This document shows positions 6,916-42,388 of a DNA stretch of 64,000 nucleotides, one piece after another. Made by a program: the position numbers and the translations under genes. How positions within the stretch are numbered: the first letter of the stretch is position 1; every line of letters begins with the position of its first letter. Origin of the DNA: Nitrosopumilus sp. (lineage in GTDB: Archaea > Thermoproteota > Nitrososphaeria > Nitrososphaerales > Nitrosopumilaceae); contig CBDBLO010000002.1 in NCBI GenBank assembly GCA_965207075.1, positions 672,001-736,000 on the forward strand, in the 5' to 3' direction. The notes below the pieces were generated by a model. That model made no database searches and was not told where the DNA came from. It saw nothing but the letters and a program-made list of their open reading frames with translations.

Positions 6916-7033
6916 CGGGATCATCGGTGCTTTAGCCAAACCCTCACCAGGTTCTCTAACCGGGGGTCGCCCTCTGTGTAGCACGCCTGGGTGAACCGAA
7001 AGTCACTGGTATCGGTACGATCGCATCATCCCG
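6916..7033 (-). ncRNA. Structured archaeal small RNA (box C/D-like, possibly HgcC-like)
   Basis: Intergenic. Minus strand reads CGGG-AUGAUG...CCGAUGA-UCCCG with a terminal stem, box C/D-like motifs and an internal UUCG-containing hairpin. Confidence 0.5.
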
Positions 7034-7234
7034 GTCCGTCTGCGTGCCTGCTCTTGGGCAACATGCGTTGCACAGACGATCTAAAAAGGATTTAGAATGC
7101 GTTACTTCTTGTCTATAGGACATACCCGTCCAACATTTGTGATCTGGGAAGACTAAATGAATTTGATGAGTTCATACAGTCAAACTCCTACATTGGTTGA
7201 TTCCTAGTTCTATTGCGAATTCGTGATATAGTCA

Positions 7235-7352
7235 TCGCTTCGGTATCCTCTGGTCGGTTGAGTTCAGGTAGAGTCTCGAGTTCTGGATGATCGTTTTCCA
7301 TTTGTTCGGGCTCTTGGTGGTGATGCCTGCGGCTTCTGCCAAGGTCTTGCGG
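7235..7352 (-). pseudogene. C-terminal remnant of an IS6-type DDE transposase
   Basis: Minus frame RKTLAEAAGITTKSPNKWKTIIQNS resembles C-termini of archaeal IS6-like transposases and lies just inside the TIR. Confidence 0.6.
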
Positions 7353-7353
7353 A

Positions 7354-7545
7354 TCAGTCCCGACAAAAGCTTAAGAGAATAACGAGCTGTACCAAGACGC
7401 TACAATTCAGTTGATTTCCCGATTCTTTACGATTCTTGTACAGTATTCGAACTAGTGAGACTGTTCCTGAACCTGCCTTTCTCGGCCTCGACTCGACCCG
7501 CCGTATCACGTCAGCCTCAATGGTCACGGTGATCTTGTGCTTCAC
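7354..7545 (-). pseudogene. Ribbon-helix-helix-like N-terminal fragment
   Basis: MKHKITVTIEADVIRRVE looks like the RHH beta strand and helix A. The remainder looks degenerate. Confidence 0.35.
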
Positions 7546-7611
7546 ACGACAAAGTATGGCAGCGTGGGATTAAAATAAGGTGTGGCAATTCGACATCCTC
7601 GTATAGGAAGA

Positions 7612-8382
7612 ATGAACATGGTGGACAAATCGCGCCTGCGCCGGAGGCTAGCCACATGGCTCAAGCGCCACAAGCATTTGTACTCTTTGTATTCCCACAG
7701 GTTCCGCTATGTGACGTCGCCGTGGCGCGCACTCCCAGACTGGTACATCCTAGGGGCCCCGAAGTGCGCCACCTCTTCGCTGTACTGGTATATGGTGCGG
7801 CACCCGGACATAGACCCCGGTATCACGAAAGAGCCCTCGTTCTACTATACGCGGTGGGAATACGGTGAGTACCACTACAGGTCCATGTTCCCGATGCGGA
7901 GGCGCGGAAGACTCACGGGTGATGCCAGCGCTAATTACCTGGCGCACCCGCTGCCCGTCGCCGAACGCGCGCATGAGATGACCCCGGATGCAAAACTCAT
8001 AGTGATGATGCGCGACCCGATGGATCGGGCATACTCCCACTACCACATGAAGCGCCGCCGCGGGGTGGAGACCGAGCCGACGTTCGAGCGCGCGCTGGAG
8101 CTTGAGGCGCAACGGCACGCCGTGTTCATGGGTGGTGACCTGAGGGACGACCCGTGGCACATGTACATGGGGCACGGGGACTATGAGCACCACATTGAGC
8201 GGTGGAAGAAATGGTTCCCGGACGACTCCATACTGGCCATAGACTTTGACGAGTTCATCATCGACCCGCATGCCGTGCTTGCAAGGGTGTGGGATCACAT
8301 AGGCGTCAAACAAGTGCGACTGCCAGACATGGAGCCGCGGAACGTGGGTAGGTACCCTCCGCGGCAATCGGCCAAGGATTGA
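7612..8382 (+). CDS. PAPS-dependent sulfotransferase
   Basis: 5'-PSB motif ILGAPKCATSSL and 3'-PB motif MRDPMDRAYSHY. Confidence 0.92.
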   Translation: MNMVDKSRLRRRLATWLKRHKHLYSLYSHRFRYVTSPWRALPDWYILGAPKCATSSLYWYMVRHPDIDPGITKEPSFYYTRWEYGEYHYRSMFPMRRRGRLTGDASANYLAHPLPVAERAHEMTPDAKLIVMMRDPMDRAYSHYHMKRRRGVETEPTFERALELEAQRHAVFMGGDLRDDPWHMYMGHGDYEHHIERWKKWFPDDSILAIDFDEFIIDPHAVLARVWDHIGVKQVRLPDMEPRNVGRYPPRQSAKD

Positions 8383-8403
8383 GAGTCACGAATTCGCAAC
8401 AGA

Positions 8404-9813
8404 ATGCATGATACACCTACGCTGTACACGTCGCGATGGAGCGACCCCTGGGGTTCTATGGGCCAAGCACCCTCGCAACAGAATGGGACAGTCCGAGCTG
8501 CTGTATGACTGGGCTGCGCGTCCTGATGATTCATGCAGCTTCCGTTTCATCAGAGACATCCGCAAGGGAGGTGAGAAGAAAGGATGAAGATAAGCATTGG
8601 AATCGACATTGGAAAGAGAAAATGTGACTACTGCATAGTCAACGGAAGGGAAAGGATCTTGGAACGCGGGCAGTACTTTAACACACAGGCGGACGCAAAG
8701 CAGTGAGCGCGAACGATACTCGGCAAATGCAGCAGGACGGGAAGGTGCACGGCCGCGTGCGAGACTGCCGCGAACATGTGGATTACGACGGTGGATACGT
8801 TTGAGCGCGCCGGCATTGCAATCAAGCTTGCCAACGCGTACAGGATGGCGCTGATCAACAAGACCGGGAAGAAGACCGACAGGATAAACGCAGAGAAGAT
8901 AGCGCAGATACTCAGAATGGGCTCGATACCAGAGTGCTACGTGCCGCCGGTATACACGCGCGGCGTCAGGAACATGGTGCGGCAGCACGTGCGGTTGGCG
9001 CAGGCCAGGATCAGGGTGGTAAATCAGGTTCACAACCTGCTTGACGCGCACGGCAGGGCCGTGCACGCGGCCAACACGTACTCGCTCAAGGCGCTGTCCT
9101 ATCTGGACGCGCTCAGCCTTGGCGACGCGCCGGACGACTTTATGCTGAGGCAGTGCGTCAGAAGGATAAGGCACTACAAGCGAGATTACGGAGATTGACA
9201 AGCAGCTGGAGGCCGAAGCCACCCAAAACGAGGATGCAAGGCTGCTTGCCAGCATGACCGGCGTTGGGACGTACACGGCCATACTCTTGGCATCTGAGAT
9301 ATCCGAGATATCCGAGATATCAAGGTCTGAGACTCCCAAGCAGATGATCTCGTGGGCCGGATTCTGTCCGACCGTCAGGCAGTCGGACAAGGAGACGCGC
9401 CTTGGGAGGATAAAGAAGATGGGCCCGACAGCCTAGTCAACTGGGCGATGTGCGAGGCCGCCAACGTGGCAGTCAGGTACGACGCGAGAATGAAGGCCGC
9501 ATACGAGGCTACCAGCAGGAGGCACGCGGGCAAGCACATGCTTGAAATTGTCGTGATGGCCCACAAGATGGTTCCCATAATGTGGCACATGCTGAAAACC
9601 AGGATCTCCCTAGAGTCACGCAACGAGGATCTGTACAGCCGCAAGCTGGCCGGGATGCAAAAAAAGCACCAGAACAAGGACTAGCCGTTGTGCGTGTACA
9701 TGTACGGACCAACCCTAGCGTCAGCTATAAACTACGCACTACCCACCCTAGGTGTGAGACGGACGCAAGATCGGAAAAATCCGGTTGGTACGCTCCGGTG
9801 CTATCATAGGCGT
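8404..9813 (+). mobile_element. IS110-family element (IS1111-like sub-terminal IRs), degenerate
   Basis: Sub-terminal IRs ATGATACACC (8408-8417) and GGTGCTATCAT (9797-9807). No TSD of its own. Removing it restores the IS6 TIR. Confidence 0.85.
8584..9684 (+). pseudogene. IS110 DEDD transposase pseudogene
   Basis: Motifs MKISIGIDIGK, KKTDRINAEKIA, GVGTYTA, GFCPTVRQSD. In-frame TGA at 8704-8706 and frameshifts near 9185 and 9420. Confidence 0.92.
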
Positions 9814-9859
9814 ACCTGATTCCTTAAAAGTTAAATCAAGTCGGTGGTAAAATTTTTAC

Positions 9860-10942
9860 ATGTGCAGAAATACGCGGATTTTAATCGGTACCATTAGAAA
9901 CAGAATTTTTCACGCCCATAACCTCTCTGCGGCCCTTTCTAAGCTGGGAGTAGAATGCAAGGTAGTGCTGGACTCCGAAACATATGACGGATTTCCATAT
10001 CGCAAAACGTTCCAGACTCGACGCCGAATACACAAGCTCTTTGATGAGTTCAGACCCAGCGCCGTGATGGGCACCTATCCAAACCTCTTCTGCATAGCTA
10101 CACTCGACAGAAACATACCGCTGCTCTTACAACTGAGAGGGGATTATTGGTCGGAGATGAAGTGGCTGAGAGATACGATATGCCGAAGCCCACTGAAGAG
10201 ATCAGTACTGTACTTCAAGGATAGGATCGCCCGTAGATGTTTTGCAGAATCGGCCATGATTCTACCAGTATCCGACTACCTCAAAGGCATAGTGGATCAG
10301 AAGTATCCAGACAAGTCGACCACTATATACACTGGAATGAATCCCGACATATGGAACGGGGACAGTGCAAGTGCAGTAGGTGATGTGGGGATACGCGTGG
10401 ACATCAAACACCCCTGTGTAGGACTGTTGCAGAATGCCAATGTATGGGGCAAGGCACGCGAGATGCTAGTGCTACCCAAAGTGATGAAGGCTTTGCCACA
10501 TGTCACGTTTTACTGGGCGGGGGATGGCATGTACATGGATCGCGTACTCCCAGATCTTCTCAAGTGCGACAATTTTGTATGGCTTGGGAACTTGGACGGT
10601 CAGGACACCGTGCGTAAGTACCTTGCAGAGATAGACGTGTACGCTCTAGTCAGTGGCGCGGACATGCTCCCCAATTCAGTAAGGGAGGCGGAGCTCATGG
10701 AGAAGCCCGTGATAGCAACCAACGTAGGAGGCGTGTCCGAGGCTATGCAGGATGGAGTCACGGGCTACTTGGTCGAGAGTGGCAATGCCACCCAGATGAC
10801 GAGCAGAATTCATGATTTGTTGGACAACGAGAAAACATCTAGAAAAATGGGCCAAATGGGGAAGAAGTTAGTTGAGGAGAAGTTCAACTGGGACAGAATA
10901 GCCTCGGATTTCATCAAGGCAGTGACACCTGCACTAAGATAA
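9860..10942 (+). CDS. Glycosyltransferase family 4
   Basis: DMLPNSVREAELMEKPVIATNVGG...DGVTGYLV and FNWDRIA. Confidence 0.92.
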   Translation: MCRNTRILIGTIRNRIFHAHNLSAALSKLGVECKVVLDSETYDGFPYRKTFQTRRRIHKLFDEFRPSAVMGTYPNLFCIATLDRNIPLLLQLRGDYWSEMKWLRDTICRSPLKRSVLYFKDRIARRCFAESAMILPVSDYLKGIVDQKYPDKSTTIYTGMNPDIWNGDSASAVGDVGIRVDIKHPCVGLLQNANVWGKAREMLVLPKVMKALPHVTFYWAGDGMYMDRVLPDLLKCDNFVWLGNLDGQDTVRKYLAEIDVYALVSGADMLPNSVREAELMEKPVIATNVGGVSEAMQDGVTGYLVESGNATQMTSRIHDLLDNEKTSRKMGQMGKKLVEEKFNWDRIASDFIKAVTPALR

Positions 10943-40067: not shown

Positions 40068-40574
40068 CCTGCCGCTGCGGGGTTTTCGGGTTTTGCGGGG
40101 CGCAGTATGGCCTCGTCTGCCCTGCTTTGCAGCTGGGACGGAATTTTTCTGTAGCTGGTGACATAGGCCGGTCCGCTCTGTGTGCCACATGTCATTAGGG
40201 CCTGTAAAGATCTTCTGTCAGTGATCGGGGGGTTCAAATGACTTGGACGTGTCCTTTCCAGACCCATGCTGCTCTATTGCATACCCTTCGTTTGGCTACA
40301 GGCTGTCGACTGGTGCCTGCTCTGTCTCTGACATGCGTTACAGCATTTCAAATTGTTTCTAAAACTATCTCCGGCGAGTCAGTTCTGTGCATTTTCCCTT
40401 CTCTCCACCAATCCCGATCTGGACACAAATGGAGAATGTAGGCGGAATTGCAATCTCGGTACTGTTGCGAATACGTGACATAGGCACGGCGCGATCTTCT
40501 CCGAAACGACCTTGATCCGCTTCTGCTCCGGTGGGCTGACCACAATTTATAACGTTGGGTTCGGCGGCGTGATC

Positions 40575-41639
40575 GTGGATGACATCGCCGACATAGACGC
40601 GCTTCTCAGGCTCAACGTGGGGGACGCGGGAAGGCTCAACTACATGAAGTCCAAGCTTGAGGGCGGCGGCACGCTGTACAGTTCGGACAGGACGTACCTT
40701 GAACGCCTGAAGGACGGCCTTGCGGGCGCGCCCGCCGAAGCGCCCGCCGAAGCGCCCGCCGAAGCGCCCGCCGAAGCGCCCGCCGAAGCGCCCGCCGAAG
40801 CGCCCGCCGAAGCGCCCGCCGAAGCGCCCGCCGAAGCGCCCGCCGAAGCGCCCGCCGAAGCGCCCGCCGAAGCGCCCGCCGAAGCGCCCGCCGAAGCGCC
40901 CGCCGAAGCGCCCGCCGAAGCGCCCGCCGAAGCGCCCGCCGAAGCGCCCGCCGAAGCGCCCGCCGAAGCGCCCGCCGAAGCGCCCGCCGAAGCGCCCGCC
41001 GAAGCGCCCGCTGCCTCCAAGGAGCGGGAGGTCATAATCGTAAACAAGGCGCCGCAGTCGAGCGCGGCGTGGTATCTCTTGCCCGTATTCTTCCTGATCG
41101 TGGGCGGCCTCATATCGTACCTGTGCCTCCGAAAGCAGGACCCGCCGAGGGCGCGCAAGTCGCTGATAGTGGGGGTCGTCCTGACTGCAATACCACTCAT
41201 GTTGCTCGGTGCAATGTACGGGGCCGTGGAGGACGAAATCATAGGCGAGGACGTGCACGTGCCCAACCTGACCGACGAGCAGATCAAGCAGATGGCCGTC
41301 GCCATCCCGTACGATTCGCTCATGGAGGAGCCGAAAGAACACGCGGGCAAGATAATCAAGTACGGGGGGAACGTGTTCCAAGTACAGGACAGGTTAAACT
41401 CACACGTGATGCTCGTCTCCCCCGACTTGCCGTCAGGCAACATCTGGTCCAACTTTGAAGCGGACACCAGCGCCAAGAAGCAGCTACTTGATGAACTCAA
41501 ACGAGACGTACCCAGCGCTGACGTGAGTGTGTGGGGCAAGTTCACGGGGCTACGGGATTATGACACGTGGCTTGGGGGCACAAACACCGTGCCCGAAGTG
41601 GATGTTTACATTTTGGAGAAGATCGTCATTCTAGACTAG
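40575..41639 (+). CDS. Membrane protein with APAE linker and C-terminal OB-fold-like domain
   Basis: TTTATA at about 40546. N-terminal LNVGDAGRL..LYSSDRTYL domain, 2 TMs, YDSLMEEPKEHAGKIIKYGGNVFQV. Confidence 0.8.
   Translation: MDDIADIDALLRLNVGDAGRLNYMKSKLEGGGTLYSSDRTYLERLKDGLAGAPAEAPAEAPAEAPAEAPAEAPAEAPAEAPAEAPAEAPAEAPAEAPAEAPAEAPAEAPAEAPAEAPAEAPAEAPAEAPAEAPAEAPAEAPAEAPAASKEREVIIVNKAPQSSAAWYLLPVFFLIVGGLISYLCLRKQDPPRARKSLIVGVVLTAIPLMLLGAMYGAVEDEIIGEDVHVPNLTDEQIKQMAVAIPYDSLMEEPKEHAGKIIKYGGNVFQVQDRLNSHVMLVSPDLPSGNIWSNFEADTSAKKQLLDELKRDVPSADVSVWGKFTGLRDYDTWLGGTNTVPEVDVYILEKIVILD
40728..41003 (+). repeat. Perfect 12-bp tandem repeat (GCGCCCGCCGAA)x23 encoding APAE
   Basis: Read directly from the sequence. 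Confidence 0.95.
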
Positions 41640-42158
41640 GGCTTACGTGGAATTTGAGCACACAAGAAAAGTACTGTACTTTGGTTTTTTGACGACTGTA
41701 AGAGATCAAATATTTGGCATTATCGTACCGCATACGGTAACTCCTGCCGTACACTACCGTTAAGCGCGCATTTAAATTACGGTACGTCCAATACATGCTA
41801 CCGTCTTCGCGTTAGGTCAAGGTATGATGCGGAACATTGGTGCAAACACGGTTCCGCCGCGAATCAGTGATGTGCGGGGGGACGTATTCATCATTGCATC
41901 TTTACTCTGTTCAACCGATTGTAACCCTCCGACAAAGTTATATCTAACTCCTCTCCAAGGACTTAGAGAGGTGCAGGTAGCACCTAGCAACCTGATTGGG
42001 AAGTCAGGAATAGTAAATTTTTGAGGGTATTATTCAGATGGTTGCAAAAATCGCCGCTCTATATAGAGGTGAAAATATGTCCATTATATGTAAGACTGTT
42101 GCGTGTATTAGACGACTATTCGGCAAATGAGTAGAGGCCCATTTTGGGTGCTGTTTCC

Positions 42159-42226
42159 GGTACTGGTATGAATTCGGTATATAGTCATCGGTTCGGCACC
42201 CTCTGGTTCGTGGCTATCAGGTAGAG
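42159..42226. repeat. Degenerate internal IS6-type end, homologous to 7206-7273
   Basis: GGTACTGGTATGAATTCGGTATATAGTCATCGGTTCGGCACCCTCTGG versus AGTTCTATTGCGAATTCGTGATATAGTCATCGCTTCGGTATCCTCTGG. Confidence 0.7.
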
Positions 42227-42388
42227 GCTGGCATATCATCCCGCCCCCTACCGCGACCCCGCGATGATTCATCTCCAAGTTTCTCAGGAAGTGTCAGATG
42301 ATGTCTAGCCGTGCCTAGATTCTATATCACGAATTCGCAACAGTACCGCAATCTCGAGGGCTTAAAAGGAAACCGTCGTCCTGACTGC

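What the first reader, a model, noticed from the sequence alone, without database searches (positions are those of the whole stretch)
8386..9824. Archaeal IS110 inserted inside an IS6 TIR, with a guide-like copy of that target in its leader (candidate bridge/seek RNA)
Seen: deleting about 8404-9813 restores the TIR end ...TCGCAACAGAACC directly followed by its TSD. The 180-nt leader contains TCGCAACAGAATG (8473-8485), identical to the left junction (8394-8406). It also contains GGTTCT (8452-8457, reverse complement of target AGAACC) and TCATGCA (about 8531-8537, reverse complement of the element's own left-end TGCATGA). The other TIR copies here differ at those bases (CAGTACC at 40458/42347; mismatches at 7206) and are unoccupied. 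Known: IS110-family recombinases use non-coding bridge/seek RNAs, and IS4321/IS5075 target Tn21-family TIRs. Inference: an RNA-programmed element that parasitises, and probably immobilises, IS6-type elements in an archaeon. This copy's transposase is broken.
Basis: partly seen in the sequence, partly recalled or inferred. Interest (0 to 1): 0.88.

Follow-up and report, generated by a model that had tools for sequence, protein, structure and literature searches.

The report
Dead RNA-guided IS inside IS6 end
A decayed jumping gene of the IS110/IS1111 kind sits four bases from the tip of another jumping gene's end in an ammonia-oxidising archaeon, and comparison with relatives shows that its leader encodes a guide RNA that spells out the insertion site, a mechanism already known from bacteria.

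Summary
It splits the right terminal inverted repeat of an IS6-type element (7206-9816, 8-bp duplication TGATTCCT). Its 181-nt leader repeats the left junction exactly, 13 of 13 bases.

Relatives from Nitrosopumilaceae genomes and metagenomes turn this into a mechanism. The leader folds into a conserved RNA with two internal-loop modules: 27 pairs, 97.9% paired, 9 compensatory pairs.
- The 3' arm of module 1 copies each element's left flank: 6.57 of 9 cognate against 3.28 non-cognate.
- Its 5' arm complements the right flank: 4.89 of 8 against 2.76.
- Module 2 copies the element's own right end: 7 of 7 in 16 of 19 elements.

So this is a bridge/seek-RNA element. It shows IS1111-type guide order and subterminal repeats, but the RNA lies upstream of the gene.

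Three details fail:
- The restored target is CAGTACC, not AGAACC.
- An identical TIR at 42327-42348 is unoccupied.
- TCATGCA is not a donor guide.

This copy is a fossil: one stop, two frameshifts, SG changed to SD, and a lost donor guide. It is a new member of a known kind.

The parts
7198..7205 (.). Left copy of the 8-bp target duplication TGATTCCT of the IS6-type host element
   Evidence: Read. An identical 8-mer is at 9817-9824.
7206..7228 (+). Left TIR of the IS6-type host element (AGTTCTATTGCGAATTCGTGATA)
   Evidence: 1 mismatch to the pattern; genome census.
7232..7366 (-). Remnant of the C-terminus of an IS6/IS240 transposase next to the left TIR
   Evidence: 29 of 42 residues identical (E 3e-17) to the only PF13610 ORF of the genome.
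7582..8382 (+). Sulfotransferase ORF carried between the two TIRs (cargo)
   Evidence: PF00685 at 2.6e-13 and PF13469 at 5.3e-12.
8383..8402 (-). Inner part of the right TIR. 8394-8402 (TCGCAACAG) is the left target, including the core AG at 8401-8402.
   Evidence: It is identical to the intact TIR at 42327-42346.
8403..9812 (+). IS110-family (IS1111-like) element, copy A, 1410 bp, counted with the right-hand copy of the core
   Evidence: copies B, C and D in the genome; ends defined by comparison.
8435..8551 (+). Structured guide RNA region. P1 is 8435-8443 paired with 8543-8551. Module 1 is 8445-8488 and module 2 is 8495-8541.
   Evidence: 27 pairs in 5 helices, 97.9% of cells paired, 9 pairs with compensatory change, 0 of 500 shuffles reach this.
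8450..8458 (+). 5' arm of module 1, the right-target guide. GGTTCT (8452-8457) is the reverse complement of AGAACC.
   Evidence: in relatives this arm complements the core plus right flank (8 of 8 in L053, L054, L055 and L058). In this copy it gives 5 of 6 against AG|TACC.
8473..8484 (+). 3' arm of module 1, the left-target guide TCGCAACAG (8473-8481), followed by the constant AAU
   Evidence: 9 of 9 to the left flank. Family mean is 6.57 of 9 cognate against 3.28 non-cognate.
8502..8534 (+). Module 2 loop. The 5' arm is 8502-8510 and the P5 hairpin is 8511-8523. The 3' arm (8524-8534) has lost the copy of the right end.
   Evidence: the arm equals the right end plus core in 16 of 19 relatives. 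This copy scores 3 of 7.
8566..8574 (+). Shine-Dalgarno-like GGGAGGTGA, 9 nt before the ATG at 8584
   Evidence: GGAGGTGA is invariant in the 14 aligned leaders.
8584..9684 (+). Transposase pseudogene. Lesions: TGA at 8704-8706, frame changes near 9176 and 9412-9424, a 9-nt repeat expansion at 9292-9321, and SG changed to SD.
9805..9812 (+). Right end CATAGG (9805-9810) plus the right copy of the core, here CG (AG in a related strain)
   Evidence: C9811>A in all 3 X7 contigs covering the position.
9813..9816 (-). Tip of the right TIR (TACC, reverse complement GGTA), cut off from the rest of the TIR
   Evidence: most TIR tips in the genome read GGTAC or GGCAC.
9817..9824 (.). Right copy of the 8-bp target duplication TGATTCCT

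Best explanation
Window 8403-9812 is a decayed copy of an IS110-family insertion sequence of the IS1111 type, in a Nitrosopumilaceae archaeon.

How its lineage works (inferred from the family comparison):
- Its upstream leader, also the 5' UTR of the transposase mRNA, encodes a bridge/seek RNA of about 117 nt.
- One long stem (P1) encloses two internal-loop modules.
[quoted passage not shown] - In module 2 the 3' arm has the sequence of the element's right end plus core. The 5' arm complements the start of the left end. Module 2 therefore recognises the joined ends of the excised element.
- The DEDD/Ser recombinase then exchanges strands at the core. The element ends up flanked by the core on both sides with no other duplication.

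What happened here:
- Copy A was directed by its own guide (GCAACAG, core AG) into the tip of an IS6-type TIR. It entered between ...TCGCAACAG and TACC, four bases from the TIR end.
- It has since decayed, in both the gene and the RNA.

Shown: the family, the anatomy, the conserved structure, and the guide/flank and guide/end covariation.
Inferred: that the RNA is made, that it binds the recombinase, that a circular intermediate exists, and that the insertion disables that TIR.
For: 1. Family membership. PF01548 and PF02371 hit the ORF pieces of copy A and copy B. NF033542, 'IS110 family RNA-guided transposase', scores 242.9 bits (cut-off 140) for the intact relative L006 and 196.8 bits for B. 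The nearest solved structures are ISCro4 (4e-12) and IS621 (5.1e-11).

2. The repeat. 13 of 13 bases between the left junction and the leader, with 0.11 expected.

3. Conserved structure in 14 leaders. 97.9% of 378 cells are paired and 9 of 27 pairs have compensatory changes. 0 of 500 shuffles reach any of the five measures. Slid controls give 30-50% paired.

4. The guides lie in loop arms and covary with the flanks.
- Left guide against left flank: 6.57 of 9 cognate, 3.28 non-cognate, 23 elements. Without the core: 4.57 of 7 against 1.52. 0 of 20000 permutations reach the observed value.
- Right guide against core plus right flank: 4.89 of 8 against 2.76, 19 elements, 0 of 20000.
- Four elements score 8 of 8 (L053, L054, L055, L058).

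5. Same genome, different guide, different site. Copy B has guide UGGUUAG and left flank TGGTTAG. An empty version of its site exists, CCGGTTAGGTTCCGC.

6. The module-2 3' arm equals the right end plus core at 7 of 7 positions in 16 of 19 elements. It follows the variants CATAGG, CATAGA and CATGGA, and core AG in B. 0 of 20000 permutations reach this.

7. Site reuse. Copies C and D also sit at IS6-like TIR tips, AG|TACG and TG|TACC. L005, from another genome, sits at AG|AACC.

8. IS1111-type traits. The top-strand match is 5' of the bottom-strand match, as described for IS1111 seekRNAs (PMC11187229, sections 9 and 12 read). Inverted repeats at the ends: 43 nt at 81% in L006 and 20 nt at 90% in L044. 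The motif GLxPxxxxSG is present (the motif comes from section 6 of that paper).

9. Age of the insertion. Contigs of a roughly 6% diverged strain bridge both junctions and read AG at 9811-9812.
Against: 1. No RNA evidence. No RNA run was listed, and Rfam gives no match at E up to 1.

2. Copy A folded alone is no more stable than shuffles (z = +1.09).

3. Copy A's right guide fits its real flank poorly: 2 of 8 in the family register and 4 of 8 when shifted by one base. That is 5 of 6 over AG|TACC.

4. Copy B's right guide fits its flank only with a 2-nt offset, and its right end carries 3 extra bases.

5. Copy C's left guide matches its flank at only 5 of 9 positions.

6. Copies A and C lack the module-2 copy of the right end (3 of 7 and 2 of 7). 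This lineage's RNA may not have recognised its own ends the way its relatives do.

7. L051 (2 of 8), L045 (2 of 8 in register) and L068 (4 of 8) are poor right-guide fits.

8. The elements compared are relatives, so the permutation figures overstate independence.

9. The right-end junctions were picked by a motif plus inverted-repeat rule of my own.
Confidence: 0.85

Rival explanations
1. The element is 8404-9813, the target was TCGCAACAGAACC, and GGTTCT is a perfect right guide. TCATGCA is a donor guide for the left end. The other TIRs are empty because they read CAGTACC.
For: The string operation holds. GGTTCT is 6 of 6 against AGAACC. The partner TIR at 7206 has the GTTCT form. L005 sits at AG|AACC.
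Against: The right end is CATAGG (or CATAGA, CATGGA, CATGGG) followed by a 2-nt core wherever a right junction was located (19 elements). That places T9813 in the flank. Copies C and D also read G|TAC. The related strain reads CATAGG-AG-TACC at this locus. GGTAC and GGCAC tips dominate the 45 TIR-like hits in the genome. The GCA of TCATGCA belongs to the P4 stem, whose pairs are unchanged in 13-14 of 14 leaders.
Confidence: 0.08
2. The leader is only a structured 5' UTR that controls transposase translation. Site choice is made by the protein. The guide-like matches are by-products, for example flank sequence captured at excision.
For: The RNA region ends 14 nt before a conserved Shine-Dalgarno sequence. 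No RNA data are available. Copy B's right end carries 3 extra bases that resemble another copy's flank.
Against: Capture cannot place flank copies of both strands in two loop arms 60-80 nt inside the element in 23 lineages. The same design has been shown experimentally to guide IS621, ISEc11 and ISEc21 (PMC11208160 passages; PMC11187229 sections 9 and 12).
Confidence: 0.04
3. Copy A was already defective when it inserted. It was moved in trans by the recombinase, and possibly the donor module, of an intact relative. Only its own module 1 was used.
For: Copies A and C share the replaced module-2 arm (GAUUCA) although they are about 18% diverged. Bridge RNA works in trans in IS621 (PMC11208160 passage).
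Against: No intact copy of this subfamily is in the genome. Copy B has a TAG stop and E changed to G. Timing cannot be read from one genome.
Confidence: 0.1
4. The 13-nt repeat is a chance match or a local duplication without function.
For: It is a single pair of short repeats in one decayed copy.
Against: 0.11 matches expected. The homologous position matches each relative's own flank.
Confidence: 0.01

Closest known systems
IS1111-family elements with seekRNA (ISEc11, ISPa11, ISKpn4; Siddiquee et al. 2024, PMC11187229)
   Same: DEDD transposase with a GLxPxxxxSG motif. Subterminal inverted repeats. [quoted passage not shown] The top-strand match lies 5' of the bottom-strand match.
   Different: The non-coding region lies upstream of the gene. 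The paper says almost all IS1111 members have it downstream and that 'a few' have it upstream, for example ISMtsp17. The host is an archaeon of the Nitrosopumilaceae. A second module that copies the element's right end is evident here.
IS4321/IS5075 (IS1111 family), which insert in the TIRs of Tn21-family transposons
   Same: Orientation- and position-specific insertion inside another transposon's terminal inverted repeat.
   Different: Known to me only from the citation in PMC11187229 (reference 1) and from recall. The host element there is Tn3-family in bacteria. Here it is an IS6-type TIR, cut 4 bp from the tip.
IS621 / ISCro4 bridge RNA recombinases (IS110 group; PMC11208160, PMC11208158)
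   Same: Upstream leader RNA with a target loop and a donor loop, each with a left and a right guide sharing a 2-nt core. The core flanks the inserted element.
   Different: Guide order in each loop is reversed (right guide 5', left guide 3'). The core is TG or AG instead of CT. One closing stem encloses both modules. Protein similarity is only 4e-12 and 5.1e-11.
ISEc21 (IS110 family), which targets a conserved stretch of IS3-family transposase genes (PMC11187229, section 12)
   Same: An RNA-guided IS whose natural target lies in another IS.
   Different: ISEc21 targets coding sequence and has the IS110 guide order.

Membership tests
IS110 family (RNA-guided DEDD/Ser recombinases) | DEDD RuvC-like domain plus C-terminal Tnp domain | tested here: met
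   PF01548 and PF02371. NF033542 at 242.9 bits (L006) and 196.8 bits (B), cut-off 140. Copy A's ORF is in pieces.
IS110 family (RNA-guided DEDD/Ser recombinases) | Intact catalytic residues in this copy | tested here: not met
   Stop at 8704-8706, two frame changes, SG changed to SD. Copy B has E changed to G and a TAG stop. The relatives L006 and L008 are intact.
Bridge/seek RNA | Structured non-coding RNA in the long non-coding end, with internal loops | tested here: met
   5 helices, 97.9% paired, 9 compensatory pairs, 0 of 500 shuffles. No Rfam model matches.
Bridge/seek RNA | Loop arms match both strands of the target around a shared core | tested here: met
   left guide 6.57 of 9 against 3.28; right guide 4.89 of 8 against 2.76; 0 of 20000 permutations each. 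In copy A the left guide is 9 of 9 and the right guide is 5 of 6 over AG|TACC.
Bridge/seek RNA | Second loop matches the element's own joined ends (donor) | tested here: inconclusive
   Met in relatives: 16 of 19 score 7 of 7 to the right end plus core. The left-end match is only partial and was judged by eye. Not met in copy A (3 of 7) or copy C (2 of 7).
Bridge/seek RNA | RNA is expressed and bound by the recombinase; a circular intermediate exists | not testable with these tools
   No RNA holder was listed. Contigs cannot show circles.
IS1111 subgroup | Subterminal inverted repeats with short terminal extensions | tested here: met
   L006: 43 nt at 81%. L044: 20 nt at 90%. In copies A and B only about 9-10 nt remain (ATGATA.. 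against ..TATCAT).
IS1111 subgroup | Top-strand match 5' of bottom-strand match in the RNA | tested here: met
   compared with PMC11187229 sections 9 and 12.
IS1111 subgroup | Long non-coding region downstream of the transposase gene | tested here: not met
   The RNA lies upstream in all 24 aligned elements. The paper notes a few such exceptions (section 6).
IS6 family (host element) | Short TIRs starting GG.., 8-bp target duplication, DDE_Tnp_IS240 transposase | tested here: inconclusive
   TIR pairs with 8-bp duplications occur at 7206-9816 and 40457-42348. A remnant transposase C-terminus is 69% identical to a PF13610 ORF. No element in the genome has both the TIRs and an intact gene. The IS6 TIR consensus and the 8-bp rule are recalled, not tested.

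The most novel reading that the evidence does not exclude
Nitrosopumilaceae carry a clade of IS1111-like recombinases with an upstream, single-stem-enclosed two-module guide RNA. This clade has repeatedly re-programmed its guides onto the ends of other insertion sequences: IS6-type TIR tips in the A lineage, ends of IS4/IS5-type elements in the L006 and L045 lineages, and an IS66-like end for B. They would act as hyperparasites that split and disable the TIRs of their hosts and follow TIR variants (TACC against AACC). Intact members (L006, L008, L043-L046, L054 and others) would be compact, naturally diverse programmable recombinases from mesophilic archaea.
Probability: 0.3. Interest if true: 0.65.

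Novelty: new member of a known kind. Interest (0 to 1): 0.5.

Why it matters
The mechanism is known: bridge and seek RNAs were described in 2024. This locus and its relatives add three things.

1. A natural comparative data set from archaea. More than 20 lineages each carry a different guide and a matching insertion site. This shows natural re-programming without any experiment.

2. A layout that mixes traits used to separate IS110 from IS1111. Guide order and subterminal repeats are IS1111-type, but the RNA is upstream.

3. Cases of one IS aimed at the ends of others. This bears on how mobile elements limit each other in small archaeal genomes.

The window copy itself is a fossil. The intact relatives are the ones to test.

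Tried and rejected
- Rfam: no family matches 7000-10400 at E up to 1.
- Folding copy A alone: MFE -52.6 kcal/mol, z = +1.09. This is uninformative, and the structure rests on the alignment.
- TAG recoding. One search listed many '1 TAG' rows. In the loci I held, in-frame stops fall at different positions (query positions 28, 190, 256, 286, 296, 307, 360). I dropped the idea.
- Autonomous IS6. The only PF13610 ORF (L070) has no matching TIRs beside it. Seven TIR-bounded stretches checked carry no transposase-like long ORF by eye. Only L070 was scanned against Pfam.
- Expression. 'No RNA holder listed'.
- Empty site. No contig in X1, X3, X6 or X7 skips the element. Contigs show presence, not absence.
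- IS1111 placement by similarity. A plasmid tblastn gave only generic 'IS110 family transposase' names, the best being a Halobellus plasmid at 33.9%. No tree was built.
- Donor right guide. I compared the module-2 5' arm with the left end by eye only (listing). The matches are partial, often with a 1-nt offset, and no statistic was made.
- A:T to G:C bias in the window's own genome. Self-comparison of repeats and copy A against B, L004 and L005 show ordinary spectra.
- Supplements of the papers were not opened. The covariation tables and IS lists of PMC11208160 and PMC11187229 may already include elements of this clade.
- Rows dropped. For the right-guide and right-end counts, 5 of 24 elements were left out (L008, L029, L057, L060, L063). 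No right junction was found downstream of the gene, or the contig ended. For the left-guide count, 1 of 24 was left out (L053, whose contig starts inside the left end).
- The tally of 56 of 401 genomes includes G000 and the unpublished G228. No locus of G228 was fetched or used.
Full report
WHAT IS THERE

The window is G000:C2:672001-736000 of a 2.23-Mb, 60% G+C genome. Its relatives are Thaumarchaeota/Nitrosopumilaceae MAGs.

- TCGCAACAGAATG is at 8394-8406 and 8473-8485: 2 matches with up to 1 mismatch, 0.11 expected, and 0 of 100 shuffles give 2 or more.
- GGTTCT is at 8452-8457.
- TCATGCA is at 8531-8537.

Four IS6-type TIR copies lie at 7207-7226, 8386-8405, 40459-40478 and 42327-42346. 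The pair 7206...9816 is flanked by TGATTCCT (7198-7205 and 9817-9824). The pair 40457...42348 is flanked by GCAATCTC.

The TIR is tied to IS6 in two ways. A 44-aa ORF next to the left TIR (7232-7366, minus strand) is 69% identical over 42 residues (E 3e-17) to the C-terminus of the genome's only DDE_Tnp_IS240 ORF. The elements also have 8-bp duplications. That IS6 elements make 8-bp duplications and have GG(C/T)(A/T)CTGTTGC ends is recalled, not tested.

THE INSERTED ELEMENT

The ORF pieces between 8584 and 9684 hit PF01548 and PF02371. Against copy B, read through with X at its stop, the gene shows these lesions:
- a TGA at 8704-8706;
- frame changes near 9176 and near 9412-9424;
- a 9-nt repeat expansion;
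- SG changed to SD.

The genome holds three more copies.
- B (C2:787023-788433) is 82% identical, with one TAG stop and the DEDD glutamate changed to G.
- C is internally deleted.
- D is a right end only.

BOUNDARIES

All copies start A-A-(T/C) right after a flank ending (A/T)G. All end CAT(A/G)G(G/A) followed by a 2-nt core and then the flank. For copy A this gives:
- left flank ...TCGCAACAG (core AG at 8401-8402);
- element 8403-9810;
- second core copy at 9811-9812 (CG);
- flank TACC plus TGATTCCT.

- Copies C and D read AG|TACG and TG|TACC.
- Most of the 45 TIR-like hits in the genome have tips GGTAC or GGCAC.
- Contigs of a related strain in run X7 bridge both junctions. Record 25 covers 7735-8506 with 50 differences and record 32 covers 9748-9880 with 8 differences. 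All 3 X7 contigs covering 9811 read A there, which gives CATAGG-AG-TACC.

The element is therefore flanked by AG on both sides, as expected for a shared core. The insertion predates the split of those strains.

The TIR at 42327-42348 is identical to the occupied site over CACGAATTCGCAACAG+TACC. Two more TIRs read TTCGCAACAG|TAC(C/G). Their emptiness is therefore not explained by sequence.

RELATIVES

Three searches supplied relatives.
- One search gave 13 loci from reference genomes.
- One search gave 23 loci from metagenome contigs.
- One search found a homologue at E <= 1e-30 in 56 of 401 Nitrosopumilaceae genomes. That count includes G000 and the unpublished G228, which I did not use.

A leader profile found the leader in 45 of the 70 loci held at that point.

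STRUCTURE

Fourteen leaders align over 206 columns. RNAalifold gives five helices.
- P1 (window 8435-8443 with 8543-8551) encloses two modules.
- Module 1 is P2 (CCCC/GGGG), a 9-nt 5' arm, hairpin P3 and a 3' arm.
- Module 2 is P4 (GAGCUGC/GCAGCUU), a 5' arm, hairpin P5 and a 3' arm.

Counting the 27 pairs:
- 97.9% of 378 cells are paired;
- 9 pairs have changes on both sides;
- 0 of 500 shuffles reach the observed value on any measure;
- slid controls give 30-50% paired.

Copy A alone is uninformative (z = +1.09). It carries mismatches in P2 and P3. The X7 strain has G at 8469, which restores a P3 pair.

GUIDES

In a 24-leader alignment I took the arm columns and the junction flanks mechanically and compared cognate with non-cognate pairs.

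Left guide (the 9 nt before AAUGGGG) against the left flank:
- 6.57 of 9 cognate against 3.28 non-cognate, 23 elements, 0 of 20000 permutations;
- without the core, 4.57 of 7 against 1.52;
- the first two positions are mostly a constant UU or UC, so the working guide is about 5 nt plus the core.

Right guide (5' arm) against the core plus right flank:
- 4.89 of 8 against 2.76, 19 elements, 0 of 20000;
- 8 of 8 in L053, L054, L055 and L058, and 7 of 8 in L056 and L062;
- poor fits in L051 (2), L045 (2; 6 with a 1-nt shift) and L068 (4).

Copy A:
- left guide 9 of 9, although the X7 strain reads T at 8474, the family's usual U, which would make it 8 of 9;
- right guide 2 of 8 in register and 4 of 8 shifted;
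- GGUUCU pairs with AG|TACC at 5 of 6 positions and with AG|AACC at 6 of 6;
- L005, an 87% relative, sits at AG|AACC.

Copy B in the same genome has another left guide (UGGUUAG) and sits at TGGTTAG|. An empty version of that site lies elsewhere. Copy C's guide is degraded (5 of 9).

DONOR MODULE

The 3' arm of module 2 equals the last five bases of the right end plus the core at 7 of 7 positions in 16 of 19 elements. It follows the variants CATAGG, CATAGA and CATGGA, and core AG in B. Cognate is 6.47 against 5.83 non-cognate, 0 of 20000 permutations.

By eye, the 5' arm partly complements the start of the left end. Examples are GAACACA in L051 and L054, and TACACA in L050. No statistic was made.

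Copies A and C have GAUUCA in place of the right-end copy (3 of 7 and 2 of 7). It is not supported as a donor guide.

COMPARISON WITH WHAT IS KNOWN

In IS621 the left guides lie 5' and the right guides 3' in each loop, and the core is CT (PMC11208158 and PMC11208160, passages read). Here the order is reversed.

[quoted passage not shown] They also describe subterminal inverted repeats, a GL-P----S(t)G motif, and a non-coding region that is downstream in almost all IS1111 members, upstream in 'a few' (PMC11187229; abstract and sections 6, 9 and 12 read).

The present clade has:
- the repeats (43 nt at 81% in L006, 20 nt at 90% in L044);
- the motif;
- the IS1111 guide order;
- but an upstream RNA.

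Archaeal IS110 recombinases as such are known: 662 in 2,835 archaeal genomes (bioRxiv 10.1101/2024.06.21.599552, passages). Two full-text searches listed no paper on IS110 elements of Thaumarchaeota or on IS110 in IS6 TIRs. I read only the listings and the two papers above, and supplements were closed.

TARGETS

Copies A, C, D and L005 sit at IS6-like TIR tips.

L006, L007 and L011 sit at the same sequence, (G)TAGTCTGTTG|CACAACT. In L006 it lies about 70 bp upstream of a DDE_Tnp_1 transposase gene.

Among 14 lineages whose flanking ORFs I scanned, 5 (L006, L044, L045, L055, L058) have another transposase-type domain within about 1.3 kb. I took the longest ORF of one or both flanks, and not all left flanks were scanned. 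The other 9 lie next to ordinary genes or to ORFs with no Pfam hit, for example DNA ligase and FBPase for L052.

Copy B lies at the end of an IS66-like element (PF03050, E 1.3e-4, below the cut-off).

Aiming at IS ends is therefore frequent but not universal.

VERDICT

This is a real, well-supported natural example of a bridge/seek-RNA element in an archaeon. The window shows it as a fossil. The mechanism is known and the layout is a minor mix of known traits. I file it as a new member of a known kind, interest 0.5.

SEEN IN PASSING

In relative genome G041 several copies of the L006-type element differ from the intact copy almost only by A-to-G and T-to-C changes.
- 44 of 44 differences in L007 and L011.
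- 89 of 90 in L071.
- 74 of 98 in L072.
- 43 of the 44 sites are shared with L071.
- The changes often come in T-N-N-A pairs.
- The bias extends into the flanking IS copy.

The window's own genome shows no such bias.

Noticed in passing
L006, L007, L011, L071, L072 (genome G041; record OY759726.1 as named): Copies of the same IS differ from the intact copy almost only by A>G and T>C: 44 of 44 differences (L007 and L011), 89 of 90 (L071), 74 of 98 (L072). 43 of L007's 44 sites recur in L071. Changes often come as 5'-TNNA-3' to CNNG pairs in G/C contexts. The bias continues into the flanking IS4/IS5-type copy (62 of 86 substitutions). It destroys catalytic residues (IGIDIGK to IGTGMGK). This could be directed A:T>G:C hypermutation of repeated mobile DNA, or a sequencing artefact. 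It is not seen in the window's genome.
   Followed up: partly
window 7206-9816 and 40457-42348; G000 C2:1104230-1105401 and others: IS6-type TIR pairs with 8-bp duplications enclose cargo instead of a transposase. The cargoes are a sulfotransferase (7582-8382), a PAEA-repeat protein with no Pfam hit (40512-41639), and a 332-aa ORF with an HEMGH motif. There are 45 TIR-like hits genome-wide but only one PF13610 ORF, which has no matching TIRs beside it.
   Followed up: partly
L006 1127-1156: The 15-nt left target CCTAATAGTCTGTTG is present twice in tandem directly before the inserted element.
   Followed up: no
L001 (G000 C2:785000-790500): Copy B lies between two inverted, partly duplicated copies of an IS66-like element. 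The left one is truncated, which suggests a rearrangement at the insertion. B's right end has 3 extra bases (CATAGG-AGG-AG) that resemble the flank of its 88% relative L004/L047.
   Followed up: partly
window 9292-9321: A 9-nt unit (ATC[CT]GAGAT) is repeated three times inside the transposase pseudogene, adding SEI repeats (SEISEISEIS) relative to copy B.
   Followed up: no
window 40720-41037: A long perfect 12-nt tandem array encodes (PAEA)n in the cargo ORF of the second TIR-bounded element.
   Followed up: no
G000 C2:1039889-1040872 (-): A distant IS110-family paralogue with an open frame of 421 aa and no internal stop (E 3.4e-48 to the profile). Its leader and target were not examined.
   Followed up: no
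right and left ends of relatives (e.g. L051, L052, L054, L055): The subterminal repeats are A/T-rich (TTTTAACATAGG at the right end, CATGTAAAAAC at the left end) in otherwise G+C-rich elements. They could serve as archaeal TATA-like boxes, so that joining the ends would place one upstream of the RNA. This was not tested.
   Followed up: no
L058 about 2600-2850: This element carries about 300 extra bases between the stop codon and the right end, with a repeated GGGTGTTTTTACATGAAT unit.
   Followed up: no
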